Shown here in pieces: positions 28,839-47,475 of a stretch of 64,000 nt of DNA (position 1 is the stretch's first letter; each line of letters starts with the position of its first letter). The notes under the pieces are model-generated. The model searched no databases and was not told the origin of the DNA. It saw nothing but the letters and a program-made list of their open reading frames with translations. Source of the DNA: Candidatus Omnitrophota bacterium (GTDB taxonomy: Bacteria; Omnitrophota; Gorgyraeia; Gygaellales; Profunditerraquicolaceae); the NCBI GenBank assembly GCA_025453395.1, contig JALOQK010000002.1, positions 474,509-538,508 on the forward strand, in the 5' to 3' direction. The position numbers and the translations under genes are program-made.

Positions 28839-29569
28839 CTCTTTTCCTTCCTAAAACTGGACAAAATAAATTCTATTTTTAATTTCATGAAATCCGATAA
28901 AAGTTTGGCTATAATCCCCGGAAGCTTATTTGTAGAAAGCCAACGCGAATCTCCATATGGCCTTTTGTAGTGTTTCACCGGAACCTCAACCACGCGGTAT
29001 CCTTTATGATGTGCGCGCACTAAAAACTCCGTAGAAATAAAATCTGAAATTATTCTCCCCTCCAAAACGCTATCCAAGACTTTTTTACGCATAACCCTAA
29101 AACCACAATTTATATCATGCATTCTTATGCCAAACAACAACCCCACAATGGTATTCATGCCGTTTGAGATACGGCAACGCATATGCCCATCCAGGCGCGG
29201 GAATTTATATCCGGTAATTAGATCAAAATCATCAATAAAGGGGATCATTTTCCAGAAATCAGCCGGGCTATGTTGCCCATCGGAATCACTGAAGAAAATT
29301 ATATCATTCTTAGGCAGCTTAAAAGCATCCCAAACTGCTTTAGCGTAGCCCTTGCGGTCATTGCTTGTCACCAGCTTAATGGGCAGCTGCTTAGCAAGCC
29401 GCGCAAGAACCTCTTTTGTCCCATCAGTGCTGCCATCTTCAGCTACAATAAACTCTGATCCGGGTATTTTACTTATTACCTGATCATAGTAATTACGCAC
29501 TACCTGCTCAATGATATCTACTTCATTATGCACCGGAATTATCAAAGAAATCTTATCTTTATTCACCAA
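28835..29569 (-). CDS. Family 2 glycosyltransferase
   Basis: ISLIIPVHNEVDII...VAEDGSTDGT...FFSDSDGQH. Confidence 0.8.
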   Translation of the reverse strand: MVNKDKISLIIPVHNEVDIIEQVVRNYYDQVISKIPGSEFIVAEDGSTDGTKEVLARLAKQLPIKLVTSNDRKGYAKAVWDAFKLPKNDIIFFSDSDGQHSPADFWKMIPFIDDFDLITGYKFPRLDGHMRCRISNGMNTIVGLLFGIRMHDINCGFRVMRKKVLDSVLEGRIISDFISTEFLVRAHHKGYRVVEVPVKHYKRPYGDSRWLSTNKLPGIIAKLLSDFMKLKIEFILSSFRKEKR

Positions 29570-29575
29570 GGCCCC

Positions 29576-30676
29576 CTATCTTATTATTTTCTGCAGTAAA
29601 CCTAAAATCCCTCCGATACTAATAGCCTGTACAGGGCATACCTCTTTGCAACAAAAACAAGCAATACATTTACGCGCATTGATCCTTGGGTATTTATCAA
29701 AATCTATTGCCTTAACTGGACAAATCTCATAACATTGTTTACAGGATATGCACTTCTTTGAAGACACCTTAAGTTTAACTTTGCGCACCATATTTAATAT
29801 TAGTTTAGCCGGCAAAGATTCGCCTTGCGCTTCTTTGTTGTAGGTAGAAGGCAGCTTAAAATTACTTAACCTTTCCAAATTCCCGATAATTTGCATTTTC
29901 TTTATATCCGCTTGCCCTAAATTTTCTTCTCTGGCAAGACGCATAGTATCTACCTTTGCCGGATCAGCGCCCATCATATAACAGATGATTGCGTCTACGG
30001 CCACGGTATCATTTGAAGCAATAACTTTATTAATATTGCGAAGATCTGAACTATTTGGCCCATCGCCCTGCATGCCGACAATTGCATCCATAATCACTAA
30101 ATCAGGGGGCCGGATTTTAAAAACCTCAACCACTGCTTTTGCGAACTTCTTATATTCCGGGAACATGCTGTGAAGCTTAGTTTTTTCCGAGCCTACTAAA
30201 AGGCCATAGCTATTCTTTATGCCTGCGGTAATAATAGTATTAAGATGCGTCTTAAATTTAGGCAAAGAAATAAAATAATCGCATTCTAAAACAGCCCTTG
30301 CTACAGCAGCTTCTGGGTAACCGGGGATCCCGGTCTTAACCTGTGCCGCACTCTTGCCGATATTTATATAATGACCTTTTGAGGCCTCATAGATACCAGT
30401 GACCTTAGCCACAGATTCATTATCCCCATAAGCCCTGGGCATGCCGCAATTGTCACCCACAACAACGCTTGCGCCATGGCTTATAAGGTAATCTACAACA
30501 CTTGATACAACCGCAGGATGAGTAGTTACCCCCTTATCCGGAGCAAAACTACCTAAAAGATTGGGTTTAACAAATACTTTTTTGCCTTTAAAATCATATT
30601 TAAACTCCTGAAAGACTTTTTCGATATCATGCTTTATTCTATTATAATCAGTATCCAAGATAAGGACCTTGCTCAT
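29576..30676 (-). CDS. DUF362-domain protein fused to a 2x[4Fe-4S] ferredoxin domain
   Basis: N-terminal VFVKPNLLGSFAPDKGVTTHPAVVSSVVDY..VVVGDN is DUF362-like. The C-terminal CISCKQCYEICP and CIACFCCKEVCP are two CxxCxxCxxxCP ferredoxin motifs. Confidence 0.65.
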   Translation of the reverse strand: MSKVLILDTDYNRIKHDIEKVFQEFKYDFKGKKVFVKPNLLGSFAPDKGVTTHPAVVSSVVDYLISHGASVVVGDNCGMPRAYGDNESVAKVTGIYEASKGHYINIGKSAAQVKTGIPGYPEAAVARAVLECDYFISLPKFKTHLNTIITAGIKNSYGLLVGSEKTKLHSMFPEYKKFAKAVVEVFKIRPPDLVIMDAIVGMQGDGPNSSDLRNINKVIASNDTVAVDAIICYMMGADPAKVDTMRLAREENLGQADIKKMQIIGNLERLSNFKLPSTYNKEAQGESLPAKLILNMVRKVKLKVSSKKCISCKQCYEICPVKAIDFDKYPRINARKCIACFCCKEVCPVQAISIGGILGLLQKIIR

Positions 30677-31728
30677 TTTTTGCCCCTCTTATTTAAATAC
30701 ATATTTACCAAAGCCCCTTTCATTGTGGCCGGGTCAAAACTTATAAACTTGCTCAATTCAATATACCCAAGATGCATGCAGGTAACACACTTTGTATTTT
30801 TTCCAATATAATCCCAAGCCTTCTTAAAACCAAGATCAAAACAATTTAAACCCTCTCCCCATCTTCCGGTACAAGAGCTTACCGTTCCATCGGTATCAAT
30901 AATACAAGAGGTCAACGTCTGCTGACAACGAGTATATCGTACTTTTTTGCCGCGAAGATCTTCTGGAAAGATAACTCGCTTTTCCCCAAAAGGCCAATTT
31001 AAAACCTCTTCCATGGCCAACACAGAATTCATAATCGGCCAACCATCTTTTTTATACTGAATAAACTTATGATAAAACTTTCTTCTTTCATCTTCGCTAA
31101 GCACTAAATTAGTATCTGCCATATCCGGCCTGGCGGCTTCTGATAAATTAAACGAAACATTGTATTTCTTGCTTAAATTCAAAAGATGCTCTAAAGAATC
31201 CATGGTATAACGCATCAAAACCCCATGGAGCCTGACTACCATGTTATTGGCTAAAGCTACCTCGATAGCCTCAATAACTTTATTATAACATCCCTTGCCC
31301 CTGACGCGATCATTCTGCACTGGATCTCCGTCAATACTTATACAGATACTGCTCAAGTTCTTCAACTGTTTAACCTTTTGAGGCAGAAAATAACCATTTG
31401 TGTTTAGGTCGCAAACTATGCCTTTCTTGTGCGCATAGTCAATCAGCTCCCCGATATCCGGACGCATCAATGGCTCCCCTCCTAAAAAACGCAGCCATCG
31501 CGTGCCGCAAGAATGCAGCTGATCAAAAAGCTTCTTCCATATCTGGGTACTTGGCTCTGGGACTTGCTTAAGTTTCTCGAAATCAGCATAACAATGGATA
31601 CAGCGCAAATTACACATTTTGGTAATATGCACCTCTACCCTTAACGGAATCCTTTTGCCGGTTATCTTGGCATAAAGCATTTTTGTTAAGGGACTAACCC
31701 AGGGCTTTATCTTGCGAATTAAACCCAA
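30673..31728 (-). CDS. Radical SAM enzyme with a Cys-rich C-terminal SPASM/twitch-like region; paralog of 38519-39562
   Basis: HITKMCNLRCIHCYA, GGEP and C-terminal CQQTLTSC...CTGRWGEGLNC...CVTCMHLGY. It shares the DLNTNGY / MNTNGH core with 38519-39562. Confidence 0.8.
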   Translation of the reverse strand: MGLIRKIKPWVSPLTKMLYAKITGKRIPLRVEVHITKMCNLRCIHCYADFEKLKQVPEPSTQIWKKLFDQLHSCGTRWLRFLGGEPLMRPDIGELIDYAHKKGIVCDLNTNGYFLPQKVKQLKNLSSICISIDGDPVQNDRVRGKGCYNKVIEAIEVALANNMVVRLHGVLMRYTMDSLEHLLNLSKKYNVSFNLSEAARPDMADTNLVLSEDERRKFYHKFIQYKKDGWPIMNSVLAMEEVLNWPFGEKRVIFPEDLRGKKVRYTRCQQTLTSCIIDTDGTVSSCTGRWGEGLNCFDLGFKKAWDYIGKNTKCVTCMHLGYIELSKFISFDPATMKGALVNMYLNKRGKK

Positions 31729-31729
31729 T

Positions 31730-33196
31730 TTAACCCTCTCCTGTTATGCGGTACTTCCTGAACAAATTAATAAAATCCTTGCTTCTACAGGTTAAGCAGA
31801 GCGTAATAAATTGCCAAATTAATATTGGATGCTTTAAAACAATACCAAATAAATCAAGAATAAACTTCGGCTGTTTTAAATAATCCAATACCGTCTTATA
31901 AAATGAGCCCTGAACCATGGAATCATATATCTGATAAAGCTCCTTCTCATTAAAATTGATAAACATGACAGGCCGCGCGTTATGCCCTTGAGTATCCCAG
32001 AAAATTTCTTCTGGCTTTATCCATCCTTGAGCGCTGGCCTGTTGGTACAATTCGCTTCCCGGATAAGGCGTACAAAAACCAATCCCCAAATAATCGGGCT
32101 TTATTTCCTTAAGTAGTTTACGCGTCATCTCCAGATCTTCCCTTGTTTCTTGAGGGCTGCCAATCATAATCGTAGCCAAGGCGCGAAGTTTATTCTTATG
32201 CGCGGCGGCAAAAGCTTTTTTGGTAAGATCTATAGTTATGCCTTTTTTAATGGCATTGAGCACTTTCTGTGAACCTGACTCAACCCCCAAGTCTACCTGG
32301 ACACAACCGCTTTCTTTAAGCTTCTTGGCGACACTATCTGTAAGATAATTCACCCTGGCCTGGCAGGCCCAGGTAAGATTTAATTTCCGCTTTTTTATCT
32401 GTTCACAAAATTCAAAAACCCTTTCCGGCCTGATGACAAAAGTATCATCTAATATCCAAAAGGCTTCGATCTTATAATTACGCTTTAGAAACTCCAGCTC
32501 ATCAACTACATCTTTTATTGAACGCTCTCTGATTTCATACCCATGGGTAATAGCGCTTGCGCAAAAAGTGCATCTGCCGGGACAACCGCGAGCGGTAAAC
32601 ACCCAGCCGCACCTTAACCATAAACCACGGATTGCATAGTTATTGGCAATATAATGCTCTGCGTTTATCAAATGATACGCCGGCATAGGAAGCTTGGAAA
32701 CATCCTCAAAGCCAACCCTGTCTTTTGTCTTGATATATTTTCCAGCGGAATCTTTAAAAACAATAGAAGCTACATCATTTAATGCAACATTCTGCTCTAA
32801 ATGCTCAACTGTCTTTAAAAGAATACTTTCTCCCTCGCCTAAAACAGCAACATCCGCACCTAAATTTAGAAAAAACTCTGGCAAGGCTGTGGCATGCGTT
32901 CCCCCCACAATTACTTTTACAGCCGGATAATTTTTCTTAATAAGGGGGATAAGTTTCTTTAAAACTTCCGTGTGCGAAGAAAGGCAAACAAATCCTACAA
33001 GATCGATATTTTCTTGCGCTATTTTGTTTAATAATTGATCAAAGGAAAATTCTTTTTTACCATAGGTATTAAGTTCCTCTATTTGCACAAAACGCCCAGA
33101 CTTTTCCAGGACTGCCGCTAAATAAAGCAAGCTAAAAGGCGGAGAAAAGCCAATAACTGGGTTTACAAGAAGATTTTTAAACTTCTCCATAAGCAT
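31730..33196 (-). CDS. Cobalamin-binding (class B) radical SAM enzyme
   Basis: N-terminal B12-binding Rossmann-like domain (VIGFSPPFSLLYLAAVLEKSG...DLVGFVCLSSH) followed by the radical SAM core with ARGCPGRCTFCAS. 488 aa. Confidence 0.8.
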   Translation of the reverse strand: MLMEKFKNLLVNPVIGFSPPFSLLYLAAVLEKSGRFVQIEELNTYGKKEFSFDQLLNKIAQENIDLVGFVCLSSHTEVLKKLIPLIKKNYPAVKVIVGGTHATALPEFFLNLGADVAVLGEGESILLKTVEHLEQNVALNDVASIVFKDSAGKYIKTKDRVGFEDVSKLPMPAYHLINAEHYIANNYAIRGLWLRCGWVFTARGCPGRCTFCASAITHGYEIRERSIKDVVDELEFLKRNYKIEAFWILDDTFVIRPERVFEFCEQIKKRKLNLTWACQARVNYLTDSVAKKLKESGCVQVDLGVESGSQKVLNAIKKGITIDLTKKAFAAAHKNKLRALATIMIGSPQETREDLEMTRKLLKEIKPDYLGIGFCTPYPGSELYQQASAQGWIKPEEIFWDTQGHNARPVMFINFNEKELYQIYDSMVQGSFYKTVLDYLKQPKFILDLFGIVLKHPILIWQFITLCLTCRSKDFINLFRKYRITGEG

Positions 33197-34682
33197 CCTT
33201 CTTTTTTGTCCTCCAGAAATAGCTTGTAATCGTGCTTATTACAAACACCGGATGATTCAGCATAAGCGCGCCCCAGCGAAATATAAAAGCGCGAAAATTC
33301 CTCAAGACTAATCCAGCATTTAATTTAAAGGCCTCGCTGAAATATATTTCCTCAAGCTGTTTGCGGGTAAAATTCTCAGTGTCGTAACTAGCGGTGCTAA
33401 ATTCTGAGCGCAAAAAATCATGCCCTTCTGGGATGTAGCCCTTTTCTTTGCAAATACGCATAAGGTCTGTCCCGGGAAGAGGCGTGGCAATTGACAAAAA
33501 GACCGAATCCGGTTTTATTTCCCGGATAAAGGAAAATGTCTTTTTGATCTCCTCCATCGTCTCTCCAGGATACCCCATAGAGAAAAATGTGCTAATCACA
33601 AGTCCTAACTTCTTGGCGATTTTCATGTTAGTTCTTACAATATCTAAGCTTACCGGCTTGTGGATAATATCTTTTAATACCCTATCGCTTCCGCTTTCAA
33701 CCGCAAAACGAAGCTCATACGCCCCGCAATCTTTCATCGCGCGCATCATTGGCTCATCTAACGATGCTACTACCAGGCCGTTTGGTGTCGACCAACGCAG
33801 ATTAAACTTACCTTGTTTGATTTGACTAAAAATCTTCATTGCCCTGTTATAATCAGAAGTCAAGCTATCATCAGTAAACTGTAATTCTTTGATCTTGTAG
33901 GTCTTAACCAAATGCTCTATCTCGGTCAAAACATTTTGCGGACTGCGGCAACGGTATTGGCGCAGCCAATAGTTTTTGCCAAAGCAAAAAATACAATTAT
34001 AAGGGCAGCCTCGTGAAGTTATAATGGTCAGGCTTCTTTTAATAAAAGAGAGATTCTGGTTTAGGTTTATTTTGAAATATTTTTCTATAGGCACCAAATG
34101 CCGCGCGGGAAAAGGCAGCTCATCAAGATTTTGAATCAATTTTGTTTTAGGATTCACTATAATTTTATTGCCTTTGCGATAAGCTATGCCATCAATAGCG
34201 CTAAAATCACTCCCGCCAGAATTCAATACTCCCACCAAGTCCCTAAATGGATACTCCGCCTCATGCATCAAAACAAAATCCACATGAGAATGATATTCTA
34301 AGGTTTTATCGGGAAAAAGCGTGGGATGCGGGCCGCCTAACACCGTAACGATATCCGGCGAAACCTCTTTTACGGCAGCACAGGCATCTAATGAATTGGT
34401 AAACTCTAATGATGACTGACAGGCAACGCCGACTACACCGGGCGAAAAATCACGAATAACCTTTTTTATGCTATCATAACTTAAACCATAGCGGATATGG
34501 CGGGAATCAATATTCTGCTGATTCTTAAAACCCTCTAAGGCAGCGTCTAAAACCTTAACCTGATAGCCGCTTTTTTCCATAACCGCGGCAATATAAAGTA
34601 CCCCTAAAGAAGGAGTGGTGATCTTTAACCTGCCCACAGGCAATGTGCAAGGAGGAATTAACAGGAGTATTCTTTTATTCAT
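33177..34682 (-). CDS. Cobalamin-binding (class B) radical SAM enzyme
   Basis: N-terminal LLLIPPCTLPVGR...LGVLYIAAVMEKSGYQVKVLDA B12-binding-like domain and TSRGCPYNCIFCFG CX3CX2C. 501 aa; 20-nt overlap with the upstream paralog. Confidence 0.8.
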   Translation of the reverse strand: MNKRILLLIPPCTLPVGRLKITTPSLGVLYIAAVMEKSGYQVKVLDAALEGFKNQQNIDSRHIRYGLSYDSIKKVIRDFSPGVVGVACQSSLEFTNSLDACAAVKEVSPDIVTVLGGPHPTLFPDKTLEYHSHVDFVLMHEAEYPFRDLVGVLNSGGSDFSAIDGIAYRKGNKIIVNPKTKLIQNLDELPFPARHLVPIEKYFKINLNQNLSFIKRSLTIITSRGCPYNCIFCFGKNYWLRQYRCRSPQNVLTEIEHLVKTYKIKELQFTDDSLTSDYNRAMKIFSQIKQGKFNLRWSTPNGLVVASLDEPMMRAMKDCGAYELRFAVESGSDRVLKDIIHKPVSLDIVRTNMKIAKKLGLVISTFFSMGYPGETMEEIKKTFSFIREIKPDSVFLSIATPLPGTDLMRICKEKGYIPEGHDFLRSEFSTASYDTENFTRKQLEEIYFSEAFKLNAGLVLRNFRAFIFRWGALMLNHPVFVISTITSYFWRTKKKDAYGEV

Positions 34683-36167
34683 TTATACGCTTAAATCCTG
34701 GTTAAACTTTTGATAAATACTTTCCAAGAAATCCATCGCCTTGCCCTTTCTTAAAGCAAGCCATAATGCCTTTATTACAAAAACCGGATGCCCCAAAATC
34801 GTCATAATCGCTCTTAGCAGGTACTTCGGACTATTTAAAAAAGCGATCATAGTTTGCATGTTATTACGCCAGAAAAAAGCATTCTCTAAAGAAGCGCGTA
34901 TTTTCACCAATTGATCAGCTTTGAAGCTTGCCTGCATTACCGGCACATTAGACTGCTTATTAGTCCATCTTTGATCAAAAATAATCTTTTCATCAACAAA
35001 CCATTTATTCTCTATAGCCATCTTATACAATGGCGACCCCGGATAAGGAACTAATATCAGAAATCCCACTCCTGCGGGAGCCAGTTTAGCTATTTTTCTT
35101 GTTTGCTCTATATCCTCTATTGTCTCTTCGGGATTGCCGATAATAAAAGTGGCAAAAGATTCCATCTTTACTTTCTTAAGATTACTAAAAGACCGCGCGA
35201 TCATTTCTTGAGTAATGCCTTTTTTTAAAATCTTTAATATCCGGTCAGACCCAGATTCACATCCAATGTCAACTTGCACACAGCCCGCTCTCTTTAGCAT
35301 TTCTAAAACAGATAGCTCGCCTGCTATGTCCGCGCGGGTCTGGCAACCCCAAAACATATTGACCTTCTTATCAACTATAGAACGGCAAAAATCATCAAGC
35401 CAATTTCTATCCGAGGCAAAGGTATCATCATTAAAATATATCCCTTTAACCGCGTGATTATCCCGCAGATAAACCATCTCTTCTAAAACATTTTCTACGG
35501 AGCGCCTGCGGATCTTTGCCCCATGCACAATCTTACTTGCGCAAAAAATACACTGATAAGGACACCCCCGGGAGGCATACATGGTAGTAACCCCTTGATA
35601 AAACTTGCCTCTTAATATCCCCGGAGGAGATAAATACCATTTAAAAGAAGGCGCTACCAACAAACTCCTGTCAGGTATAGGCAAAATATCCAGATCCTGG
35701 ATGAAATCCCCTCTGCCGTTATCAACGATCTTCTTGTTTCTATCTCGGTATACAACGCCTCTTATGCCAGATAAATCCATGTCCTGGGAAAGCCGATCGC
35801 AGACATCCAGCATAACAAACTCTGCTTCGCCAACAACCACAAAATCAATATTGGAATCCTCTAAAACTTCTTCCGGCAAAGCTGTGGCGTGCACCCCTCC
35901 CCAGCAAATTTTGCTGTTCTTATTCTCCTGGCGCAAATAAACGGTATATTCATGGGCCACTTGAAAGCCGGTTGTAAGCACACTTACTCCTATTAGATCC
36001 GGATTGAAATCCCTGATCGTATCTAGATTTTTCCTATGCGATGAAGGAAATGAATCAATAATCCTAACATCGCACCCGGCATTTCTTAGCATTGTCCCAA
36101 TATACAAAATCCCCATCGGAACAACGGGAGTATAATTCTCGCGAAAGAATATTAAGACAACGCGCAT
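34683..36167 (-). CDS. Cobalamin-binding (class B) radical SAM enzyme
   Basis: MRVVLIFFRENYTPVVPMGILYIGTMLRNAGCDVRIID B12-binding-like N-terminus and ASRGCPYQCIFCAS. 494 aa. Confidence 0.8.
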   Translation of the reverse strand: MRVVLIFFRENYTPVVPMGILYIGTMLRNAGCDVRIIDSFPSSHRKNLDTIRDFNPDLIGVSVLTTGFQVAHEYTVYLRQENKNSKICWGGVHATALPEEVLEDSNIDFVVVGEAEFVMLDVCDRLSQDMDLSGIRGVVYRDRNKKIVDNGRGDFIQDLDILPIPDRSLLVAPSFKWYLSPPGILRGKFYQGVTTMYASRGCPYQCIFCASKIVHGAKIRRRSVENVLEEMVYLRDNHAVKGIYFNDDTFASDRNWLDDFCRSIVDKKVNMFWGCQTRADIAGELSVLEMLKRAGCVQVDIGCESGSDRILKILKKGITQEMIARSFSNLKKVKMESFATFIIGNPEETIEDIEQTRKIAKLAPAGVGFLILVPYPGSPLYKMAIENKWFVDEKIIFDQRWTNKQSNVPVMQASFKADQLVKIRASLENAFFWRNNMQTMIAFLNSPKYLLRAIMTILGHPVFVIKALWLALRKGKAMDFLESIYQKFNQDLSV

Positions 36168-36170
36168 AAA

Positions 36171-37673
36171 TTAAATTCTTTTTCTTTTTAAGCCTAACTT
36201 CTTCTTGATATGCCAAAAATAATAACTTACGTATTGGAACCCGGATAAATCTCTTTTTGCAAACATAACAATAAAATCCACAACAAATAAAGTTAACCCT
36301 TTAGGCAAATACTTAAAATACTTTTGCAGATTATATTTGAGTATAAACTCTACTAGAGGCTTGGGCAAAAGAGGCATCGCCCTAAAAAGTATTTCATAAT
36401 TCTTGAACACTTTAAGCAAATTCCTGTTTTTTAAATATCCGTGCGAGCCGGCAATATAACAGGGAGATTCTCCTTTATTGATTGCCTCTATATCGCTTGA
36501 GGTGAGCATATCCAAACTCTTGGCAATATCTACCAAATCGGTATTGGGAAAATAGGTAGTCCAGAAACAGGTGATCCTTACCCTATTCCTAAAACCCGCG
36601 TAAGAACGCGCAGCCAATATCTGGTCCTCTTCTTTCTCGCCCGGTAGCCCAAACATATGATCGCAGGAATATTTTAACCCCACCTTGTCGCATATCTCAA
36701 AAGTCTGAATGATCTTGCTATTTTTCTCGTTCCTGAAAAGATAGTTCTTTTTAGTATCCTCGTTAAAAGTCTGCACGCCAAACTGCACCCGATGACAGCC
36801 TGCCTCCTTTAGAGAGCGCGCTGTATCCTCGTCTATGCATAGAGGATGAGAAATAGCCCTGAAGGGGACATTGATTTCTTTCTTGTAACGATGCATCAAT
36901 TCTTGGGTCCATTTCTTATCAACAGTCAAAACGCTATCGTAAAACCCCACTTCGCGGTAATTATAGCGCTTTTTCATTATGATCAATTCCTGCATTACAT
37001 TATCCACGCTCCTGCGGCGCTTATCCCTTGTATTATTGAATTTAGACATAAAATTCTGCGAGCAGTATGAGCAGGCATACGGACAACCCTTGGCAGTCAT
37101 TGTCATATACATGCGGCTTATATTAACCTCGTCCTCGAAAAGCTTTTTATCCAAAAAAGGCAGCTTTTCTAAATCAACAAGCGCTCTTACGGAATTACGG
37201 ATAATCCCTTTTTTGGTTTTAAACCAAATATTTTTGATGCCGTAATCAATATTCTTTTTTTCCATGCTGTTCAATAATTCCAACATCGCCTCTTCGCCTT
37301 CGCCAGTACAAACCATATCTACGCAAGGAAGCGAAATAATATAGTCTGGCTTGGCAGTCGGAAAGACCCCGCCAAAAATGACCGGAATATTCTTTATTTT
37401 CTTTACATCCTGGGCAACTGAAACTGCCCATCTGAAATTATCTGTAAAAACCGAAAAACCCAAGACATCAGGCTTAGAATCTATGATTTTCTTAACTAGG
37501 GCTTTTCTATCATCAAGTATCCTGTGCAGCCAAGGGATCTTAAAATAATTAACATCATCGAACAGCGCCGGATCAAAAACGAGGTTAACCGTATGACCAT
37601 GCCTTTTCACAAAGGCTGAAATTGCCTCTAAACTCAAACTCTCTGCCCCCATGAAAACAACCGTTAATCGCAT
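36171..37673 (-). CDS. Cobalamin-binding (class B) radical SAM enzyme
   Basis: MRLTVVFMGAESLSLEAISAFVKRHGHTVNLVFDP B12-binding-like N-terminus and TAKGCPYACSYCSQ. 500 aa. Confidence 0.75.
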   Translation of the reverse strand: MRLTVVFMGAESLSLEAISAFVKRHGHTVNLVFDPALFDDVNYFKIPWLHRILDDRKALVKKIIDSKPDVLGFSVFTDNFRWAVSVAQDVKKIKNIPVIFGGVFPTAKPDYIISLPCVDMVCTGEGEEAMLELLNSMEKKNIDYGIKNIWFKTKKGIIRNSVRALVDLEKLPFLDKKLFEDEVNISRMYMTMTAKGCPYACSYCSQNFMSKFNNTRDKRRRSVDNVMQELIIMKKRYNYREVGFYDSVLTVDKKWTQELMHRYKKEINVPFRAISHPLCIDEDTARSLKEAGCHRVQFGVQTFNEDTKKNYLFRNEKNSKIIQTFEICDKVGLKYSCDHMFGLPGEKEEDQILAARSYAGFRNRVRITCFWTTYFPNTDLVDIAKSLDMLTSSDIEAINKGESPCYIAGSHGYLKNRNLLKVFKNYEILFRAMPLLPKPLVEFILKYNLQKYFKYLPKGLTLFVVDFIVMFAKRDLSGFQYVSYYFWHIKKKLGLKRKRI

Positions 37674-37681
37674 TTAATAAA

Positions 37682-38518
37682 TTAACCTTTCGTTTTGTTC
37701 TGAACAAAATGTAACAATGATGCTGTAGGCGGGCAAAATACGCGGAAAGGCGTCATGCCGCTTGTGCCCAACCCGGAATTAACATGCAAATAAGTATCCC
37801 CAAATTTAAATAAACCTCTGTTGTATTTTCTTTGAAAGGAAGAAATGGTAACAAGCGGACCGATAAATGGAAGCCGGATCTGGCCTCCGTGCGTATGGCC
37901 AGAAAGCATAAGCTGCATATCAAGCCCTTTTAAATTTTCCATAATATCCGGCAGATGGGAAATAACTATCTTATATGAATCTTTATCCATCCTGGATACA
38001 AATTCCCTTAAAGAACTGATCTCTTTATCAAAGTTGCGCCAGATCTTCAGGCGGTCATACCCAAAAGGCCCCTCAATGCCGGTAATATCCAATCTTACTC
38101 CATTAACACAGAATTTCTGGTATACATTATCTAATACATTGATGCCCTTGTTCTCTAATTCTCTTCTTAGAAGCGAAATGTTGTTTTCCTTAAGCCTGCG
38201 CAAAAAAGGAAAAAACAAAAACTCTTTTAAACCCAAACTATGACGATCATGGTTTCCGTATCCGGCCAAAACCCCATAGCGCGGCTTTAACAAGCCCAAA
38301 TAATGCGCACACGCACCTATGCCCCGATTATCATCAATCATGTCCCCGCTTATAATCGTAAAATCAGAATCAATATCCTGAATTTGCGCGAATATACGGT
38401 CAAACCGTTTACTGCGGTTTATAAAATGAAAATCTGAAATATGAAGTATTTTCAAACCCTCTAAAGCTTGGAATTTACTGGGCAGATTAATACTTATGTC
38501 TTCTTTTACAAAATCCAA
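37682..38518 (-). CDS. Calcineurin-like metallophosphoesterase
   Basis: ILHISDFHF (DxH), ISGDMIDD (GDxxD), GYGNHDRH (GNHD/E) and a later GHTHGG; canonical MPP motif set. Confidence 0.75.
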   Translation of the reverse strand: MDFVKEDISINLPSKFQALEGLKILHISDFHFINRSKRFDRIFAQIQDIDSDFTIISGDMIDDNRGIGACAHYLGLLKPRYGVLAGYGNHDRHSLGLKEFLFFPFLRRLKENNISLLRRELENKGINVLDNVYQKFCVNGVRLDITGIEGPFGYDRLKIWRNFDKEISSLREFVSRMDKDSYKIVISHLPDIMENLKGLDMQLMLSGHTHGGQIRLPFIGPLVTISSFQRKYNRGLFKFGDTYLHVNSGLGTSGMTPFRVFCPPTASLLHFVQNKTKG

Positions 38519-39562
38519 TTATTTTCTCCAACCGGCCTCTATGAAACTATTCTTAATGTGATTTAGGATAACATGCGGCGAAAGCCCCAAAAGCATATTG
38601 TAATCATTAAAGCAAATAAAGGCATAGCAGGTCTTGCAACTATGGTCCTTAATATTCTCCCAAGCCCTGATAAACCCATGTTCTACAAAACTTAAAGCGG
38701 GGATCATCTGAATCATCTGCGAACAAGGATACACCTTGCCATCTGAATCTATAATGCACATATTCTTGCCCGCATGGCACTTAATGTGCCTGCCGAAATC
38801 TTTAATCGCGCCAGCCTCTATTGATTTCTTATTGTAATCTGGCCAATCCAAAGTATATTGATGAGCCTGTTTAGAAAAGAAAACCGGATAGCCCTTTTTC
38901 TTATAATCAATAATCTTTCTTAAGGCGTTTTTGTAATCTTCTCTAGAAGCCAAGAAATCCTGATTGCTTTGAAAAAATGGCAGCAAAAACTGCACGAAAA
39001 ACTTTTTTTCTTTAGCCAGATCTAAAATATGCTCTATGGCATGCACATTATATTTGCTGATCATAGTACTTGTATGCACATTGATATTATTCTTCTTGGC
39101 TAAATCAATTGCCTCTATCACTTTACGGTAAGAGCCTTTCCCCTTATACAGATCATGCGATTGTTCATCACCGTCTAAACTAATGCATAAGGTATTAAGT
39201 TTTTTAACCGCGCTTAACCTCTGAGGCACAAGGTGTCCATTTGTATTCATGTGGCATTCGATACCATTTTTACGTATATAATCAATGACCTGCTCAATAT
39301 CCTTGCGCATCAATGGCTCACCTGCCCCCAAATTTATTATCTTTGTGCCTAAAGATTTTAATTCATCGATAAGCGCCAAGAGCTGTTCAGTGGTAAAATC
39401 TTTTGTGTCGCGCTTATCATAAGTGCCATAACAATAACTGCACTTTAAATTACAGGTATTGGTCACATTAATATGCACTGTAAGCGGAATGGATTTCTTG
39501 GTAAAGGCTATGTTCAAAATAGAAGAAAAAATCCCAACCTTAGAAAAAATATTACTGGCCAT
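38519..39562 (-). CDS. Radical SAM enzyme with a Cys-rich C-terminal SPASM/twitch-like region; paralog of 30673-31728
   Basis: INVTNTCNLKCSYCYG, AGEP and C-terminal CHAGKNMC...CSQMIQ...CKTCYAFICFNDYN. Confidence 0.8.
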   Translation of the reverse strand: MASNIFSKVGIFSSILNIAFTKKSIPLTVHINVTNTCNLKCSYCYGTYDKRDTKDFTTEQLLALIDELKSLGTKIINLGAGEPLMRKDIEQVIDYIRKNGIECHMNTNGHLVPQRLSAVKKLNTLCISLDGDEQSHDLYKGKGSYRKVIEAIDLAKKNNINVHTSTMISKYNVHAIEHILDLAKEKKFFVQFLLPFFQSNQDFLASREDYKNALRKIIDYKKKGYPVFFSKQAHQYTLDWPDYNKKSIEAGAIKDFGRHIKCHAGKNMCIIDSDGKVYPCSQMIQMIPALSFVEHGFIRAWENIKDHSCKTCYAFICFNDYNMLLGLSPHVILNHIKNSFIEAGWRK

Positions 39563-40310
39563 TATTCCTCCCTACGATGACAATCTTAAAAGCAAAAAGT
39601 GATTTAAATAAATACCCGAATACGTATTCTACCGGCTGGATAAAGCTTAAATAGAACTTATAGCATGGCAATTGCATAAGATACTTACCCCCTAAAGACT
39701 CTTGATCTTTTTTTCTTAACATGATTTTCTTCAAGAACGGCTGAAGCGCCCGGACAAAATAAGGGATATAATCTATTTTCTCTATCGTGAAGCCCTCCCT
39801 TAAAAGCATATTCTTGGCGCTAGCTAAGGTAAAAAAGCGGATATGCCCTCTATCCATTATCCCGGTATCTGTATAATCAAAGTTACCGAATAAGAAATTA
39901 ATCCTGTTTAACCACGAAACCGTATTTGGAAAGGAAAAAATAATCTTGGCTCCGGGCTTAAGAAATCCCTTATAAAATTTAACCGCCTCTCTAGGCTCTA
40001 AGATATGCTCCAAAACATCGGCAAAAATAATATAATCGAAGAGAATTTCTCCTAAATATCCTTTTACTGCAACAAAATCTGTCAAATCCGCCTGGATAAC
40101 CCTGGTGATGCGTTTGACTGATTCTGCAGAAGCTTGCGGGTGCATTTCTATGCCCCAGCAAACACAGTTCTTTTTTTCTATTTCCTCGCCCAATACACCC
40201 CGGCCGCACCCGACATCCAACACCAAAGGCACAAGCTTGGAATCAGCAATAACAACCTGTCTTAAAACCGCATCATTTATTTCATCAAAATATTTATAAT
40301 CTTGTGTCAT
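39552..40310 (-). CDS. Class I SAM-dependent methyltransferase
   Basis: VLDVGCGRGVLGEE (motif I), FADVLEHILEP and KPGAKIIFSFPN (Methyltransf_11/12/23-like). Confidence 0.75.
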   Translation of the reverse strand: MTQDYKYFDEINDAVLRQVVIADSKLVPLVLDVGCGRGVLGEEIEKKNCVCWGIEMHPQASAESVKRITRVIQADLTDFVAVKGYLGEILFDYIIFADVLEHILEPREAVKFYKGFLKPGAKIIFSFPNTVSWLNRINFLFGNFDYTDTGIMDRGHIRFFTLASAKNMLLREGFTIEKIDYIPYFVRALQPFLKKIMLRKKDQESLGGKYLMQLPCYKFYLSFIQPVEYVFGYLFKSLFAFKIVIVGRNNGQ

Positions 40311-40319
40311 TCTGATAGG

Positions 40320-41303
40320 TTAGCTATGAAATACAATCTTTGCTCCTTCATGCTCAAAAGAAAACCAAAAAGGCACCAGCCCCATCTTGGCCATTGCCTC
40401 GACCAAAACAGATTTATTCTTTGGGCAATAGAAAAGAATAAATCCTCCTCCTCCGGCACCCGCAACTTTGCCGCCCAAAGCTCCGGACTTGCGCCCAGCC
40501 TCATACACTTCGTCTATGAAGCTGTCGGATACCTTGCCAGACAAACCTTTTTTTATCAACCAATGCTGATGCATTAGTTCACCAAAATCATCAAGCTTGC
40601 CCTTCTCAAAGGCAGCTCTGGTAGCAAGTCCGATTTCTTTTATCTTATGCAATCTCTGGATAGTTTTCTTATCATCCTGCTTAGTTTTTTGGTCTTGCTC
40701 AATTAAAACATCGCTTGCTGATCTTTCTTTATTCAAGAAAAAAAGCAGAAGATTATTCTGCAATTGAGCCAAATCTTCTTCCTTGATATCTACGGGATCA
40801 ACAACCACTGTGCCATCCGTATTAAAAGTATAGGCATTAAACCCGCCAAAACTAGCCACATACTGGTCTTGCTTACCAATCGGCTGCTTTAGAATATCAA
40901 GTTCTAAATGGCAAGCCGCCTCTGCCAGATCTTCAAGATTTAAATATTGCTTTTTATACGCATAAAGGCCGTTAAGCAATGAAACGGTAAAACTAGAAGA
41001 AGTGCCTAATCCGCAATGCGCCGGGACATCGGCTATAGAAACAATCTCTATCTGCCGGTTAATTTGCAACAGCTTTAATACCTCGCGGAATATTTTATGC
41101 TCTATGTCCTTAACCTGGCCCACTATTTCGGTCTTGGAATAAGAAAGGCGGATGGACTGATTAAAACGTTTATTGATATTAATATAAACGTATTTATTTA
41201 TTGCCGCGGCCATTAAGAATCCGCCATACTTTTTGTAATATGACGGTAAATCGGTTCCACCCCCGCCCATAGATAATCTAACCGGAGCGCGCGATATAAT
41301 CAT
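40320..41303 (-). CDS. GHMP-family sugar kinase, D-glycero-alpha-D-manno-heptose-7-phosphate kinase (HddA)-like
   Basis: MIISRAPVRLSMGGGGTD N-terminus typical of heptose/fucose GHMP kinases and the ATP-binding motif VPAHCGLGTSSS (PxGxGLGSS). It sits beside gmhA and the hddC-gmhB fusion. Confidence 0.7.
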   Translation of the reverse strand: MIISRAPVRLSMGGGGTDLPSYYKKYGGFLMAAAINKYVYININKRFNQSIRLSYSKTEIVGQVKDIEHKIFREVLKLLQINRQIEIVSIADVPAHCGLGTSSSFTVSLLNGLYAYKKQYLNLEDLAEAACHLELDILKQPIGKQDQYVASFGGFNAYTFNTDGTVVVDPVDIKEEDLAQLQNNLLLFFLNKERSASDVLIEQDQKTKQDDKKTIQRLHKIKEIGLATRAAFEKGKLDDFGELMHQHWLIKKGLSGKVSDSFIDEVYEAGRKSGALGGKVAGAGGGGFILFYCPKNKSVLVEAMAKMGLVPFWFSFEHEGAKIVFHS

Positions 41304-46595: not shown

Positions 46596-46597
46596 TT

Positions 46598-47368: not shown

Positions 47369-47423
47369 TTTATTCTCCTTCAATAGGCTCGTAAGTTATA
47401 GATTTGACTACAGATAGACCTTT

Positions 47424-47452
47424 ATTTTATATCGAATCTAACTATCTTTCAA
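47424..47452 (-). promoter_or_regulatory. Candidate sigma70-like promoter (TTGAAA-17-TAAAAT) driving the rfbF-led minus-strand operon
   Basis: Lies in the 131-nt divergent intergenic region. Minus-strand reading gives TTGAAAGATAGTTAGATTCGATATAAAAT. The rfbF Shine-Dalgarno and ATG lie about 50 nt downstream. Confidence 0.35.
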
Positions 47453-47475
47453 GCACAAAATTACCTTTAAACCAA

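What the first reader, a model, noticed from the sequence alone, without database searches (positions are those of the whole stretch)
29576..40310. Four tandem cobalamin-dependent radical SAM enzymes bracketed by Cys-rich radical SAMs, a DUF362-ferredoxin, a metallophosphoesterase and a methyltransferase
Four consecutive ~490-500-aa class B (B12-binding domain + CX3CX2C) radical SAM genes lie in one overlapping array at 31730-37673. They are diverged paralogs rather than nucleotide repeats. They are flanked on both sides by paralogous radical SAMs with Cys-rich C-terminal regions (30673-31728, 38519-39562), a DUF362 + 2x[4Fe-4S] ferredoxin that could serve as an electron donor, a calcineurin-like phosphoesterase and a class I SAM methyltransferase. 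All of this is embedded between nucleotide-sugar and glycosyltransferase genes. Class B radical SAMs typically perform methylation or other radical chemistry at unactivated carbons (GenK, Fom3 and TsrM are named from established knowledge). Four in a row inside a glycan locus suggests iterative radical C-methylation, epimerisation or other radical tailoring of a sugar, lipid-linked glycan or phosphorylated intermediate. No characterised glycan pathway is known to use such a set.
Basis: partly seen in the sequence, partly recalled or inferred. Interest (0 to 1): 0.85.

Follow-up and report, generated by a model that had tools for sequence, protein, structure and literature searches.

The report
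B12 radical-SAM cassette for heptose tailoring
An uncultured Omnitrophota bacterium carries a conserved, uncharacterised set of four vitamin-B12-type radical enzymes and helper genes that comparative genomics ties to a seven-carbon sugar (heptose) destined for the cell surface, pointing to an unknown kind of sugar modification shared with other ultra-small uncultured microbes.

Summary
Genes 31730-37673 encode four B12-binding radical SAM proteins that are 24-32% identical to each other. They are flanked by two paralogous small radical SAMs, a metallophosphoesterase, a class I methyltransferase and a DUF362/2x[4Fe-4S] protein, on a MAG labelled Candidatus Omnitrophota. None reaches the cut-off of any curated family.

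The new result is comparative. Each of the four paralogues has its own orthologues in other metagenomic contigs, including a population labelled Candidatus Nealsonbacteria. Those cassettes are repeatedly co-linear with an NDP-heptose gene set (GmhA-, HddA-, GmhB/HddC-like genes and a transaldolase), a GalE-like epimerase, an ArnC/DPMS-like GT2, a UDP-galactopyranose-mutase-like flavoprotein and GT-C transferases. In one archaeal locus the heptose nucleotidyltransferase is fused to a B12_2-like enzyme.

The best reading is radical tailoring, most likely C-methylation, of a nucleotide-activated heptose. The product would be loaded onto polyprenyl phosphate and transferred outside the membrane. 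The chemistry itself is unproven.

Tandem arrays of this clade are common (up to 8 copies), and distant arrays in Bathyarchaeia sit in non-glycan contexts. The DUF362 domain has a LarA-like fold, so the protein is not a plain ferredoxin. I found no literature on this cassette.

The parts
43550..44875 (-). Fusion of an HddC-like sugar-1-phosphate nucleotidyltransferase (N-terminal) with a GmhB-like HAD heptose-bisphosphate phosphatase (C-terminal)
   Evidence: Pfam NTP_transferase plus HAD. NCBIfam GmhB 143 bits against a cut-off of 178, and HddC 75 bits against 300. Orthologues lie next to the cassette in L090, L164 and L095.
42832..43548 (-). Transaldolase/FSA-family enzyme, the likely supplier of sedoheptulose 7-phosphate
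   Evidence: Pfam TAL_FSA E 2e-36. Conserved beside the cassette in L090, L164, L095 and L085/L086.
42272..42835 (-). GmhA-like SIS-domain sedoheptulose-7-phosphate isomerase
   Evidence: Pfam SIS_2. NCBIfam gmhA 65 bits against a cut-off of 209. Conserved synteny.
41310..42275 (-). GalE-type NDP-sugar 4-epimerase-like SDR
   Evidence: Best PDB match 3ehe (GalE-1), 244 bits. The sequence has S...YxxxK and lacks the dehydratase TDE motif. Orthologues score 239-404 bits in L085/L086, L089, L090, L091, L095, L096, L098 and L164.
40320..41303 (-). HddA-like GHMP kinase (heptose 7-phosphate 1-kinase)
   Evidence: NCBIfam HddA 185 bits against a cut-off of 600. Orthologues score 286-507 bits next to the cassettes.
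39552..40310 (-). Class I SAM methyltransferase
   Evidence: Pfam Methyltransf_23 E 9e-16. Orthologues (228-297 bits) lie directly upstream of the phosphoesterase (with two rSAM_b-like genes in between in L089) in L089, L090 and L164. Class I methyltransferase domains are fused to B12_4-like enzymes in P0392 and P0441.
38519..39562 (-). Small radical SAM 'rSAM_b' with a twitch/partial-SPASM-like C-terminal cysteine set
   Evidence: Pfam Radical_SAM E 7e-30, SPASM below threshold. Four invariant C-terminal cysteines. Orthologues in L088, L095 and L089. Homologous domains are fused to B12_4-like enzymes in P0408, P0471 and P0510.
37682..38518 (-). Cassette-specific metallophosphoesterase (YaeI/LpxG-like)
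   Evidence: Pfam Metallophos. NCBIfam LpxG 95 bits and YaeI 92 bits, both below cut-off. Only about 18 close homologues exist, followed by a sharp drop in score. The five whose context was read (P0258, P0252, and the phosphoesterases of L083, L089 and L090) sit in B12-rSAM cassettes.
36171..37673 (-). Class B radical SAM 'B12_4', the core member of heptose-linked cassettes
   Evidence: Pfam B12-binding plus Radical_SAM. CPYACSYC motif. Orthologues score 479-842 bits in L083, L088, L089, L090, L091, L095, L096, L098 and L164. There are 2065 50%-identity clusters at E<=1e-30.
34683..36167 (-). Class B radical SAM 'B12_3', the second core member
   Evidence: Pfam. Orthologues score 380-674 bits in L083, L088, L089, L090, L091, L099 and L164. 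Best NCBIfam match HpnJ, 202 bits against a cut-off of 578.
33177..34682 (-). Class B radical SAM 'B12_2', whose relatives are fused to a heptose-type nucleotidyltransferase
   Evidence: Pfam. AF2 model pLDDT 90.7 with a class B fold. Orthologues score 584-640 bits in L083, L084/L099 and L088. Fusion proteins P0036 and P0038. Best NCBIfam match Sden_1168 family, 288 bits against a cut-off of 575.
31730..33196 (-). Class B radical SAM 'B12_1'
   Evidence: Pfam. Orthologues score 529-557 bits in L083, L084 and L088. Borderline hydrophobic C-terminal helix at residues 446-470.
30673..31728 (-). Small radical SAM 'rSAM_a', a paralogue of rSAM_b
   Evidence: Pfam Radical_SAM E 4e-19. 36% identical to rSAM_b. 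Shares the same invariant cysteines.
29576..30676 (-). DUF362 (LarA-fold) domain fused to a 2x[4Fe-4S] ferredoxin domain
   Evidence: Pfam DUF362 E 3e-49 plus Fer4. The AF2 model (pLDDT 89.8) best matches LarA-family racemases, E 4e-5 and TM about 0.4. An orthologue is present in L083 (374 bits). More distant homologues stand alone.
28835..29569 (-). GT2 resembling polyprenyl-phosphate glycosyltransferases (ArnC, DPMS, AglJ, PpgS)
   Evidence: The top NCBIfam hits are all polyprenyl-phosphate sugar synthases, and all are below cut-off. PDB ArnC 69 bits and DPMS 54 bits. Orthologues score 111-251 bits in L083, L085/L086, L090, L096, L098, L163 and L164.
27558..28838 (-). UDP-galactopyranose-mutase-like flavoprotein
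   Evidence: PDB UGM entries 3ute and 4dsg, E about 1e-27. Orthologues score 329-577 bits in L083, L090, L096, L098, L163 and L164. The L163 orthologue has a faint Pfam GLF hit.
26365..27561 (-). GT87-family GT-C membrane glycosyltransferase, a presumed user of a polyprenyl-phosphate sugar
   Evidence: Pfam GT87 E 2e-11. Six hydrophobic segments. GT-C genes (PMT_2/TMEM260-like) lie inside related cassettes in L013 and L086.

Best explanation
The region is the centre of a conserved biosynthetic cassette that makes an unusual, heavily tailored heptose for a cell-surface glycoconjugate.

The steps below are inferred from homology and synteny unless marked otherwise.
1. A transaldolase, a GmhA-like isomerase, an HddA-like kinase and a GmhB/HddC-like fusion build a nucleotide-activated D-glycero-D-manno-heptose.
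2. A GalE-like SDR epimerises it.
3. The four class B radical SAM enzymes tailor the sugar while it still carries its nucleotide handle. B12_4 and B12_3 are the core pair and B12_2 and B12_1 an accessory pair. Each has its own site or reaction. They act together with the two twitch-type radical SAMs and the class I methyltransferase. The most likely chemistry is methylcobalamin-dependent C-methylation at unactivated carbons plus an O- or N-methylation.
4. A UGM-like flavoenzyme converts the product to the furanose form.
5. An ArnC/DPMS-like GT2 loads it onto polyprenyl phosphate.
6. After flipping, the GT87 GT-C enzyme adds it to a glycan assembled by the rest of the roughly 47-kb operon.
7. 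The metallophosphoesterase probably cleaves a nucleotide-diphosphate or phosphodiester handle.
8. The ferredoxin module of the DUF362 protein may feed electrons to the iron-sulfur and cobalamin centres.

Shown here: the domain content, the paralogy, the orthology of each member across contigs, the synteny and the fusions. Inferred: the substrate, the order of steps and the reaction type.
For: Domains and motifs.

Class B fold of B12_2: AF2 pLDDT 90.7. Best PDB folds are AprD4, TsrM, MgmA, TokK, CysS and OxsB.

One-to-one orthologues of all four paralogues:
- L083: 557-674 bits.
- L088: 546-590 bits.
- The contig population labelled Candidatus Nealsonbacteria (L084, L095, L099, L163): 529-666 bits.
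- An NJ tree places each window paralogue in its own orthogroup.

Co-linearity with the heptose genes, SDR_41310, the methyltransferase, the phosphoesterase, GT2 and the UGM-like gene:
- L090 and L164 have the same gene order as the window.
- L089, L091 (no heptose-route gene on these two), L095, L096 and L097/L098 also show it, in part or in shuffled order.

Fusions (Rosetta-stone evidence):
- HddC-like nucleotidyltransferase fused to a B12_2-like enzyme (P0036, P0038). It sits in an archaeal locus with STT3, a GHMP kinase (353 bits to the window's), SIS, HAD, TAL, GT2 and a GT-C.
- B12_2-like enzyme fused to TPR repeats and a DegT aminotransferase (P0055).
- B12_4-like enzyme fused to a small radical SAM (P0408, P0471, P0510).
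- B12_4-like enzyme fused to a methyltransferase (P0392, P0441, L104).

Heptose-route assignments.
GT2 is most like ArnC and DPMS.
UGM-like assignment.

Three unrelated phosphoesterase folds recur in these cassettes: Metallophos, PHP and NPP. This suggests a required phosphoester cleavage step.

The phosphoesterase subfamily is small and cassette-specific.

Precedents, from review PMC9204698:
- GenK, Fms7 and MoeK5 are class B radical SAMs that C-methylate sugars.
- Fom3 needs a cytidylylated substrate.
- HpnJ, Fom3, MoeK5 and SD1168 share one similarity cluster.

The same operon carries other sugar C-C-bond-forming systems: RfbF and RfbH with a YerE-like ThDP enzyme, and an E1 alpha/beta pair.
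Against: There is no biochemical or glycan-structure data for any member.

All heptose-route, GT2 and UGM assignments fall below the curated equivalog cut-offs.

The closest solved relative of B12_2 and B12_3 is AprD4, a sugar 1,2-diol dehydratase that is not a methylase and, from prior knowledge, does not use cobalamin. Methylation is therefore not established.

Some related cassettes lie beside housekeeping or unrelated genes: L082 and L087, and the FliR side of L084.

Distant tandem arrays in Bathyarchaeia sit with amidohydrolases, CobD and redox proteins, not glycan genes.

The roles of the phosphoesterase and of the DUF362 domain remain unexplained. L090 and L164 lack the DUF362 protein, B12_2 and B12_1.

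The weak C-terminal hydrophobic helices of B12_1 and B12_3 would fit a lipid-linked substrate as well as a nucleotide-linked one.
Confidence: 0.55

Rival explanations
1. The substrate is the same (a nucleotide- or lipid-linked heptose) but the chemistry is different. Some or all of the four class B enzymes are not methylases. They would catalyse radical deoxygenation (as AprD4 does), ring contraction or carbocycle formation (as HpnJ and OxsB do), or epimerisation. The product would be a deoxy-, carbocyclic or rearranged higher sugar.
For: AprD4 is the best sequence and structure match in the PDB for B12_2 and B12_3 (74 and 84 bits; TM 0.71-0.80). HpnJ, which contracts a sugar ring in hopanoid biosynthesis (own knowledge), is the best NCBIfam hit for B12_1 and B12_3 at about 200 bits. 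Review PMC9204698 stresses that function cannot be read from sequence in this class.
Against: All these matches are far below family cut-offs. The characterised members of the same similarity cluster are mostly single-site C-methylases: Fom3, MoeK5, GenK and Fms7. All four window proteins have strong B12-binding domain matches.
Confidence: 0.25
2. The cassette installs or methylates a phosphorus-containing substituent (a phosphonate or phosphinate) on the glycan. B12_2 would act as a P- or C-methyltransferase of the PhpK/Sden_1168/Fom3 type, and the phosphoesterase would process the phosphorus group.
For: The best NCBIfam match of B12_2 is the Sden_1168 family of P-methyltransferases, 288 bits. 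One homologue (P0096) is named phosphonoacetaldehyde methylase by JGI. A phosphoesterase is a constant partner.
Against: The score is half the family cut-off of 575. The physiological role of SD1168 is itself unknown. No PEP mutase or phosphonopyruvate decarboxylase was found among the annotated ORFs of the window. Core cassettes such as L090 and L164 lack a B12_2 orthologue altogether.
Confidence: 0.05
3. The enzymes modify a lipid and not the sugar. The target could be the polyprenyl carrier or a membrane or hopanoid-like lipid. The sugar genes would be neighbours only.
For: Partial similarity to HpnJ and to the 'lipid biosynthesis B12-binding/radical SAM' family, 87-135 bits. Borderline hydrophobic C-terminal helices in B12_1 and B12_3. 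The cassette contains polyprenyl-phosphate-type GT2 and GT-C enzymes.
Against: There are fusions to a nucleotidyltransferase and to a DegT sugar aminotransferase. Co-linearity with the heptose genes recurs in several unrelated contigs. No isoprenoid or lipid-synthesis gene lies in the window or in the related loci examined.
Confidence: 0.07
4. The radical SAM set matures a ribosomal peptide (RiPP), with B12-dependent C-methylation plus SPASM/twitch-type crosslinking.
For: Sub-threshold NCBIfam hits to ApyD, to RiPP C-methyltransferases and to several SPASM peptide maturases.
Against: Genes abut or overlap, with no space for a precursor ORF. No precursor, protease or exporter lies nearby. Every informative neighbour and fusion partner is a sugar enzyme.
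Confidence: 0.03

Closest known systems
GenK, Fms7 and MoeK5: cobalamin-dependent radical SAM C-methyltransferases acting on sugars (gentamicin, fortimicin, moenomycin)
   Same: The architecture is the same: an N-terminal B12-binding domain plus a CX3CX2C radical SAM core. They tailor a sugar at an unactivated carbon. They belong to the broad similarity cluster that also holds HpnJ, Fom3 and SD1168, which are the best named hits of B12_1-3.
   Different: Those enzymes act singly in actinomycete antibiotic clusters on aminoglycoside or phosphoglycolipid intermediates. Here four to seven distinct orthogroups act together in a cell-surface glycan locus of uncultured anaerobes. The inferred substrate is an NDP-heptose. 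Membership could not be tested because no model for these families was available.
Fom3 with Fom1 and FomD (fosfomycin pathway): a B12 radical SAM methylase that needs a cytidylylated substrate
   Same: The logic matches: nucleotidyltransferase, then a class B radical SAM acting on the nucleotide-tagged substrate, then hydrolytic removal of the tag. Compare the HddC-like::B12_2-like fusion and the constant phosphoesterase partner. The FomD step is from my own knowledge.
   Different: The Fom3 substrate is a phosphonate, not a sugar. The phosphoesterase here is a metallophosphoesterase, not a FomD-type hydrolase. The analogy is inferred and not tested.
AprD4 (apramycin radical SAM 1,2-diol dehydratase)
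   Same: It is the closest solved structure and sequence for B12_2 and B12_3, and it acts on a sugar ring.
   Different: Sequence identity is only about 20%, and the NCBIfam AprD4 model scores 26-114 bits against a cut-off of 500. AprD4 does not use cobalamin and is not a methylase (own knowledge).
HpnJ (hopanoid-associated B12 radical SAM, converting a glucosamine side chain to a cyclitol ether)
   Same: It is the best NCBIfam hit for B12_1 and B12_3 at about 195-202 bits, and it acts on a lipid-linked sugar.
   Different: The score is about one third of the family cut-off of 578. The locus has no squalene-hopene cyclase or other hpn genes.
GDP-D-glycero-alpha-D-manno-heptose pathway (GmhA, HddA, GmhB, HddC) as used for S-layer and capsule heptoses
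   Same: The complete four-activity gene set is present and conserved next to the cassette.
   Different: All scores are below equivalog cut-offs. GmhB and HddC are fused. A dedicated transaldolase is included. The nucleotide used is unknown.
Three-component polyprenyl-phosphate sugar systems (ArnC/ArnEF/ArnT; Dol-P-Man synthase with a GT-C such as AglD/AglS; PpgS/Rv3779)
   Same: An ArnC/DPMS-like GT2 is paired with a GT-C (GT87 here; PMT_2 in L013 and L086). Related cassettes carry small SMR/EamA or LPG_synthase_TM membrane proteins.
   Different: The sugar carried is inferred to be a radically tailored heptose or heptofuranose. No flippase candidate lies inside the window's cassette itself.

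Membership tests
Class B (cobalamin-binding) radical SAM enzymes | N-terminal B12-binding Rossmann domain (PF02310) | tested here: met
   All four proteins match: E 1e-21, 2e-19, 6e-24 and 4e-16, all above the gathering score.
Class B (cobalamin-binding) radical SAM enzymes | Radical SAM core with a CX3CX2C cluster motif | tested here: met
   PF04055 scores 71-85 bits. One CX3CX2C motif in each protein, at residues 205, 226, 202 and 197.
Class B (cobalamin-binding) radical SAM enzymes | Overall fold like solved class B enzymes | tested here: met
   The B12_2 model (pLDDT 90.7) matches AprD4, TsrM, MgmA, TokK, CysS and OxsB with TM 0.64-0.72. This was tested for B12_2 only.
Class B (cobalamin-binding) radical SAM enzymes | Actual binding and use of cobalamin | not testable with these tools
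   AprD4 shows that a B12-like domain does not guarantee use of cobalamin. Cofactor analysis of purified protein is needed.
HpnJ (TIGR03471) | Score at or above the curated equivalog cut-off (577.6 bits) | tested here: not met
   B12_1 195, B12_2 199, B12_3 202 and B12_4 80 bits.
Sden_1168-family P-methyltransferase (NF038361) and PhpK family (TIGR04479) | Score at or above the curated cut-off (575 and 600 bits) | tested here: not met
   B12_2 scores 288 and 100 bits. The others score at most 127 and 139 bits.
AprD4-family diol dehydratase (NF033070) | Score at or above the curated cut-off (500 bits) | tested here: not met
   26-114 bits.
GenK, Fms7 and MoeK5 sugar C-methyltransferases | Orthology to a characterised member (phylogeny or a family model) | not tested
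   No family model or reference sequence was available in the tools. There is only indirect placement through review PMC9204698.
SPASM/twitch radical SAM (for 30673-31728 and 38519-39562) | C-terminal auxiliary-cluster domain (PF13186, 7-Cys SPASM motif or half-motif twitch) | tested here: inconclusive
   SPASM scores 18.5 bits against a cut-off of 21.5 in one protein and does not match the other. Four C-terminal cysteines are invariant across 8 orthologues in a 'DG.VYPC ... CX2C' pattern, enough for one auxiliary cluster.
GDP-D-glycero-alpha-D-manno-heptose pathway | All four activities are encoded (isomerase, 1-kinase, 7-phosphatase, nucleotidyltransferase) | tested here: met
   SIS, GHMP, HAD and NTP_transferase domains lie in adjacent genes. 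The best NCBIfam names are GmhA, HddA, GmhB and, for the nucleotidyltransferase half, HddC as the second-best hit.
GDP-D-glycero-alpha-D-manno-heptose pathway | Each enzyme reaches its equivalog cut-off | tested here: not met
   HddA 185 against 600, GmhA 65 against 209, GmhB 143 against 178 and HddC 75 against 300 bits. These are relatives, not proven equivalogs.
UDP-galactopyranose mutase | Sequence similarity to solved UGMs and a GLF domain | tested here: inconclusive
   PDB UGMs match at E about 1e-27 over residues 8-320. Pfam gives only Amino_oxidase and NAD_binding_8 for the window protein. The L163 orthologue has a faint GLF hit.
Polyprenyl-phosphate glycosyltransferase (ArnC/DPMS/AglJ type GT2) | Closest relatives are polyprenyl-phosphate sugar synthases, and the score reaches the equivalog cut-off | tested here: inconclusive
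   The top four NCBIfam hits (ArnC, AglJ, Dol-P-hexose transferase, PpgS) and the top PDB hits (ArnC, DPMS) are all of this type. Scores are 47-70 bits against cut-offs of 325-529.
RiPP maturation system | A precursor-peptide gene adjacent to the maturases | tested here: not met
   Gaps between genes are at most 9 nt or the genes overlap across 28835-41303. No small conserved ORF was seen in the orthologous cassettes.

The most novel reading that the evidence does not exclude
Uncultured anaerobes with small cells (Omnitrophota, the CPR lineage Nealsonbacteria, and archaea including DPANN groups) use batteries of two to seven distinct cobalamin-type radical SAM enzymes, with twitch-type radical SAMs, to build a previously unseen class of multiply C-alkylated, or otherwise radically rearranged, heptose or heptofuranose. 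They do this on a nucleotide handle and then export the sugar through a polyprenyl-phosphate carrier to decorate their surface glycans or glycoproteins. This would be the first radical-SAM-based tailoring route for a primary cell-envelope sugar. It would also give a physiological role to a large part of the thousands of unassigned B12-radical SAM genes in these lineages.
Probability: 0.35. Interest if true: 0.85.

Novelty: new variant of a known kind. Interest (0 to 1): 0.65.

Why it matters
Class B radical SAM enzymes are among the largest pools of proteins with unknown function in anaerobic and uncultured microbes. B12_4 alone has 2065 related 50%-identity clusters at E<=1e-30.

This cassette supplies something rare for such proteins: a concrete and testable substrate hypothesis, an NDP-heptose. 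The hypothesis rests on recurrent synteny across phyla and on a nucleotidyltransferase fusion.

If it is confirmed, radical C-H functionalisation of sugars would extend from antibiotic pathways to primary cell-envelope glycans. New sugar structures would be revealed on the surfaces of Omnitrophota and CPR organisms, which live attached to other cells. The set of regiospecific sugar-alkylating or rearranging enzymes would also be of interest for biocatalysis.

Tried and rejected
- Curated family assignment. NCBIfam gave no hit above cut-off for any of the ten proteins in the finding. Sequence matches to the PDB are all remote.
- Literature. Eight searches for the cassette or its parts found nothing relevant. 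One Bathyarchaeia paper only counts such genes.
- DUF362-ferredoxin as a cassette marker: rejected. Homologues at 40-45% identity are solitary genes in unrelated neighbourhoods.
- Fused methyltransferase domains of P0080 and L104 as orthologues of the window's methyltransferase: rejected. The similarity is only generic class I (E 0.002-0.005). Those of P0392 and P0441 are somewhat closer (E about 1e-10).
- Bathyarchaeia arrays as supporting synteny: rejected. Their context is amidohydrolase, CobD and redox genes.
- Phosphonate reading: no PEP mutase in the window.
- Hopanoid reading: no cyclase or hpn genes.
- C7-cyclitol reading: no sugar-phosphate cyclase.
- Promoter and terminator scan. Counts are not above shuffled expectation. 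Only the divergent pair in 47384-47514 is positionally sensible.
- Nucleotide repeats. None were found beyond a 33-nt stretch encoding the cluster motif.
- Hydropathy. The C-terminal helices are only borderline, so they do not decide between soluble and membrane-bound action.

Full report
**Observation**

The window comes from a metagenome-assembled genome labelled Candidatus Omnitrophota. Its proteins are NCBI MCU0666209-MCU0666242 on a 542,597-bp contig, where they carry only generic names. The same sequence is present in Logan run SRR12684589 and on a 197-kb JGI contig.

Nearly every gene from about 47.4 kb down to 0.2 kb is on the minus strand. In the stretch around the finding they are tightly packed.

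- four proteins of about 490-500 aa with B12-binding plus Radical_SAM domains (31730-33196 = B12_1, 33177-34682 = B12_2, 34683-36167 = B12_3, 36171-37673 = B12_4);
- two radical SAM proteins of about 350 aa (30673-31728 = rSAM_a, 38519-39562 = rSAM_b);
- a DUF362 plus 2x[4Fe-4S] protein (29576-30676);
- a calcineurin-like phosphoesterase (37682-38518);
- a class I methyltransferase (39552-40310).

Each radical SAM has a single CX3CX2C motif. The four class B proteins are only 24-32% identical to each other, and rSAM_a and rSAM_b are 36% identical. At the DNA level the only repeat is a 33-nt stretch that encodes the cluster motif.

**Family placement**

None of the ten proteins reaches the curated cut-off of any NCBIfam model.
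- B12_1 and B12_3 are closest to HpnJ (about 200 bits against 578).
- B12_2 is closest to the Sden_1168 'P-methyltransferase' family (288 against 575).
- B12_4 is closest to nothing in particular (at most 103 bits).

Sequence matches to solved structures are remote: AprD4, TokK, MgmA, OxsB, TsrM and CysS.

An AlphaFold model of B12_2 (pLDDT 90.7) superposes on exactly these class B enzymes, with AprD4 best at TM 0.71-0.80. Class membership is therefore established by domains and fold. The reaction type is not: this class includes methylases, a diol dehydratase and ring-contracting enzymes (PMC9204698).

The small radical SAMs keep four invariant C-terminal cysteines in a twitch/partial-SPASM pattern.

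**The four paralogues form a conserved set**

Searches with B12_2 and B12_4, with locus retrieval, gave 150-odd related loci. I scored all their ORFs against the window's proteins.

One-to-one orthologues of all four window paralogues occur together in three places:
- L083: 557-674 bits;
- L088: 546-590 bits;
- a contig population whose phosphoesterase NCBI labels Candidatus Nealsonbacteria: 529-666 bits. Loci L084, L094, L095, L099 and L163 are 99-100% identical in DNA.

A neighbour-joining tree of 64 class B proteins puts each window paralogue in its own orthogroup. It also shows at least three further orthogroups that relatives have and the window lacks.

B12_4 and B12_3 are the most widely shared pair. 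They are also present in L089, L090, L091 and L164.

Each enzyme therefore has its own conserved role. This argues against simple iterative action by redundant copies.

**Link to a heptose**

Upstream of the cassette in the window lie:
- a transaldolase;
- a GmhA-like isomerase;
- a GalE-type epimerase-like SDR (best PDB match 3ehe, 244 bits);
- an HddA-like kinase;
- a GmhB/HddC-like fusion.

Together these are the full gene set for a nucleotide-activated D-glycero-D-manno-heptose, although every score is below the equivalog cut-off.

Downstream lie:
- a GT2 whose best named relatives are all polyprenyl-phosphate sugar synthases (ArnC, AglJ, Dol-P-hexose transferase, PpgS, DPMS);
- a flavoprotein similar to UDP-galactopyranose mutases (E about 1e-27);
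- a GT87 GT-C transferase.

This arrangement recurs.
- L090 and L164 have the same order: heptose genes, SDR, methyltransferase, phosphoesterase, B12_4, B12_3, further B12 and radical SAM genes, GT2, mutase-like gene.
- The Nealsonbacteria-type contig, L096 and L097/L098 have the same components in other orders or in part. L089 and L091 carry the SDR and cassette genes but no heptose-route gene (L089 only a weak SIS match).

The strongest single piece of evidence is an archaeal locus (L085/L086). There an HddC-like nucleotidyltransferase is fused to a B12_2-like enzyme (P0036, 770 aa). It sits between an STT3 oligosaccharyltransferase and orthologues of the window's GHMP kinase (353 bits), SIS, HAD and TAL genes, GT2 (112 bits) and SDR (about 240 bits), plus a GT-C.

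Other fusions point the same way:
- B12_2-like enzyme with a DegT sugar aminotransferase;
- B12_4-like enzyme with a small radical SAM;
- B12_4-like enzyme with a class I methyltransferase.

**Accessory genes**

The phosphoesterase belongs to a small subfamily of about 18 close homologues, after which scores drop sharply to generic YaeI-like proteins. The members whose context I looked up sit in these cassettes.

In other cassettes its place is taken by a PHP-type or an NPP-type phosphoesterase. This suggests that some phosphoester or pyrophosphate cleavage is a required step. By analogy with LpxG, and with the fosfomycin logic of a nucleotide handle followed by hydrolysis, I infer removal of a nucleotide or phosphate handle. 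This is not shown.

DUF362 shares a Pfam clan with LarA (PMC11770544). The model of the window protein (pLDDT 89.8) best matches LarA-family racemases, though weakly (E 4e-5, TM about 0.4). Homologues at 40-45% identity are solitary genes in unrelated contexts, and L090 and L164 lack the gene. Only the C-terminal dicluster module supports the 'electron donor' idea.

**Limits**

Tandem arrays of this clade are common. At least 4 copies occur within about 20 kb in 17 of 60 genome loci and 11 of 29 metagenome loci, and the maximum is 8.

The distant arrays of Bathyarchaeia sit among amidohydrolases, CobD, Rnf-like and aldo-keto-reductase/ferredoxin genes, not glycan genes. Some closer cassettes abut housekeeping genes.

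The heptose link holds for B12_4 relatives at 44% identity or more (the B12_4 orthogroup) and for the archaeal fusion, not for the whole clade.

No RiPP precursor can fit between the genes. No PEP mutase, hopanoid gene or cyclitol synthase is present.

**Interpretation and novelty**

The best-supported model is radical tailoring of a nucleotide-activated heptose, most likely by C-methylation. This would be followed by furanose formation, loading onto polyprenyl phosphate, and transfer by a GT-C outside the membrane onto the glycan built by the rest of the operon. I put overall confidence in this model at about 0.55.

The main rival keeps the substrate but changes the chemistry to deoxygenation or rearrangement (0.25).

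Sugar C-methylation by class B radical SAMs is known from antibiotic pathways: GenK, Fms7 and MoeK5. A multi-enzyme cassette wired to the heptose pathway of a primary surface glycan, shared by contigs labelled Omnitrophota and Nealsonbacteria and, in reduced form, by an archaeal locus, is not described in anything I could find. I rate it a new variant of a known kind, with interest 0.65.

Noticed in passing
window 232-1095, 2516-3637, 6432-7496, 15745-16848: There are four further radical SAM genes, two of them with SPASM domains, in the same minus-strand gene array. That makes ten radical SAM genes in this one glycan locus.
   Followed up: partly
window 19145-22262 and 45612-47383: A CDP-3,6-dideoxyhexose route is encoded. 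RfbF (386 bits, above the cut-off of 300) and RfbH (679 bits, above 423) are true equivalogs, and there is also a CDP-glucose 4,6-dehydratase-like gene. An acetolactate-synthase-like ThDP enzyme lies directly beside RfbH. This resembles YerE-type two-carbon branching, as in yersiniose biosynthesis (the YerE analogy is from my own knowledge).
   Followed up: partly
window 2516-6429; L003: A pyruvate-dehydrogenase-E1-like alpha/beta pair lies with a GT2 and a radical SAM/SPASM gene. The same four-gene module sits next to a B12_2-like gene in a Magnetobacteriaceae MAG (L003; 258-618 bits). It may be another two-carbon sugar-branching module.
   Followed up: partly
window 47515-50028 (+): An STT3-family protein is transcribed divergently from the operon. 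It has a TIxE-like 'TVGE' motif, but 'WWCPG' stands where oligosaccharyltransferases have WWDYG. It may therefore not recognise the usual N-X-S/T sequon.
   Followed up: no
window 47384-47514: The 131-bp divergent intergenic region holds the only perfect 12/12 sigma-70-like match of the scanned 20 kb (+ strand, 47476-47503). It also holds the best minus-strand match (47452-47424, 10/12). This is consistent with the head of the long operon, although overall counts do not exceed shuffled expectation.
   Followed up: partly
window 24393-25472, 23195-24403: A NeuB-like nonulosonic-acid synthase (123 bits, below the cut-off of 400) and an FkbM methyltransferase lie just downstream of the cassette. 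NeuB and DegT homologues also accompany distant B12_4-like arrays in L107, L113 and L123.
   Followed up: no
L117, L118, L123, L126-L128: These loci hold tandem arrays of five to eight B12_4-like class B radical SAM genes (33-38% identical to B12_4). The arrays are interleaved with radical SAMs of about 446-447 aa; the one checked (L117) carries an HMPTM-type zinc ribbon. In L123, L127 and L128 the arrays lie next to DegT aminotransferases, and L123 also has an LPG_synthase_TM gene.
   Followed up: partly
L063, L067 (Bathyarchaeia / Thermoproteota): Arrays of six class B radical SAM genes are interspersed with Amidohydro_3 enzymes, CobD, an RnfD-like/ferredoxin protein, aldo-keto-reductase-ferredoxin fusions and large PQQ beta-propeller proteins. 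This is a different, non-glycan context of unknown function.
   Followed up: partly
L163 1-1946: Small SMR/EamA-type membrane proteins reminiscent of ArnE/ArnF flippase subunits lie directly upstream of the mutase-like gene and GT2 in the Nealsonbacteria-type cassette.
   Followed up: no
window 55632-57791: A type II secretion / type IV pilus ATPase (T2SSE with an MshEN domain) carries a C-terminal PilZ domain. This suggests c-di-GMP control of the adjacent pilus/T2SS gene set.
   Followed up: no
window 44872-45615: A metallo-beta-lactamase-fold protein resembling RNase Z or a cyclic-nucleotide phosphodiesterase (113 bits, below cut-off) sits between the CDP-hexose genes and the heptose genes. 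It is a second candidate phosphodiesterase in the operon.
   Followed up: no
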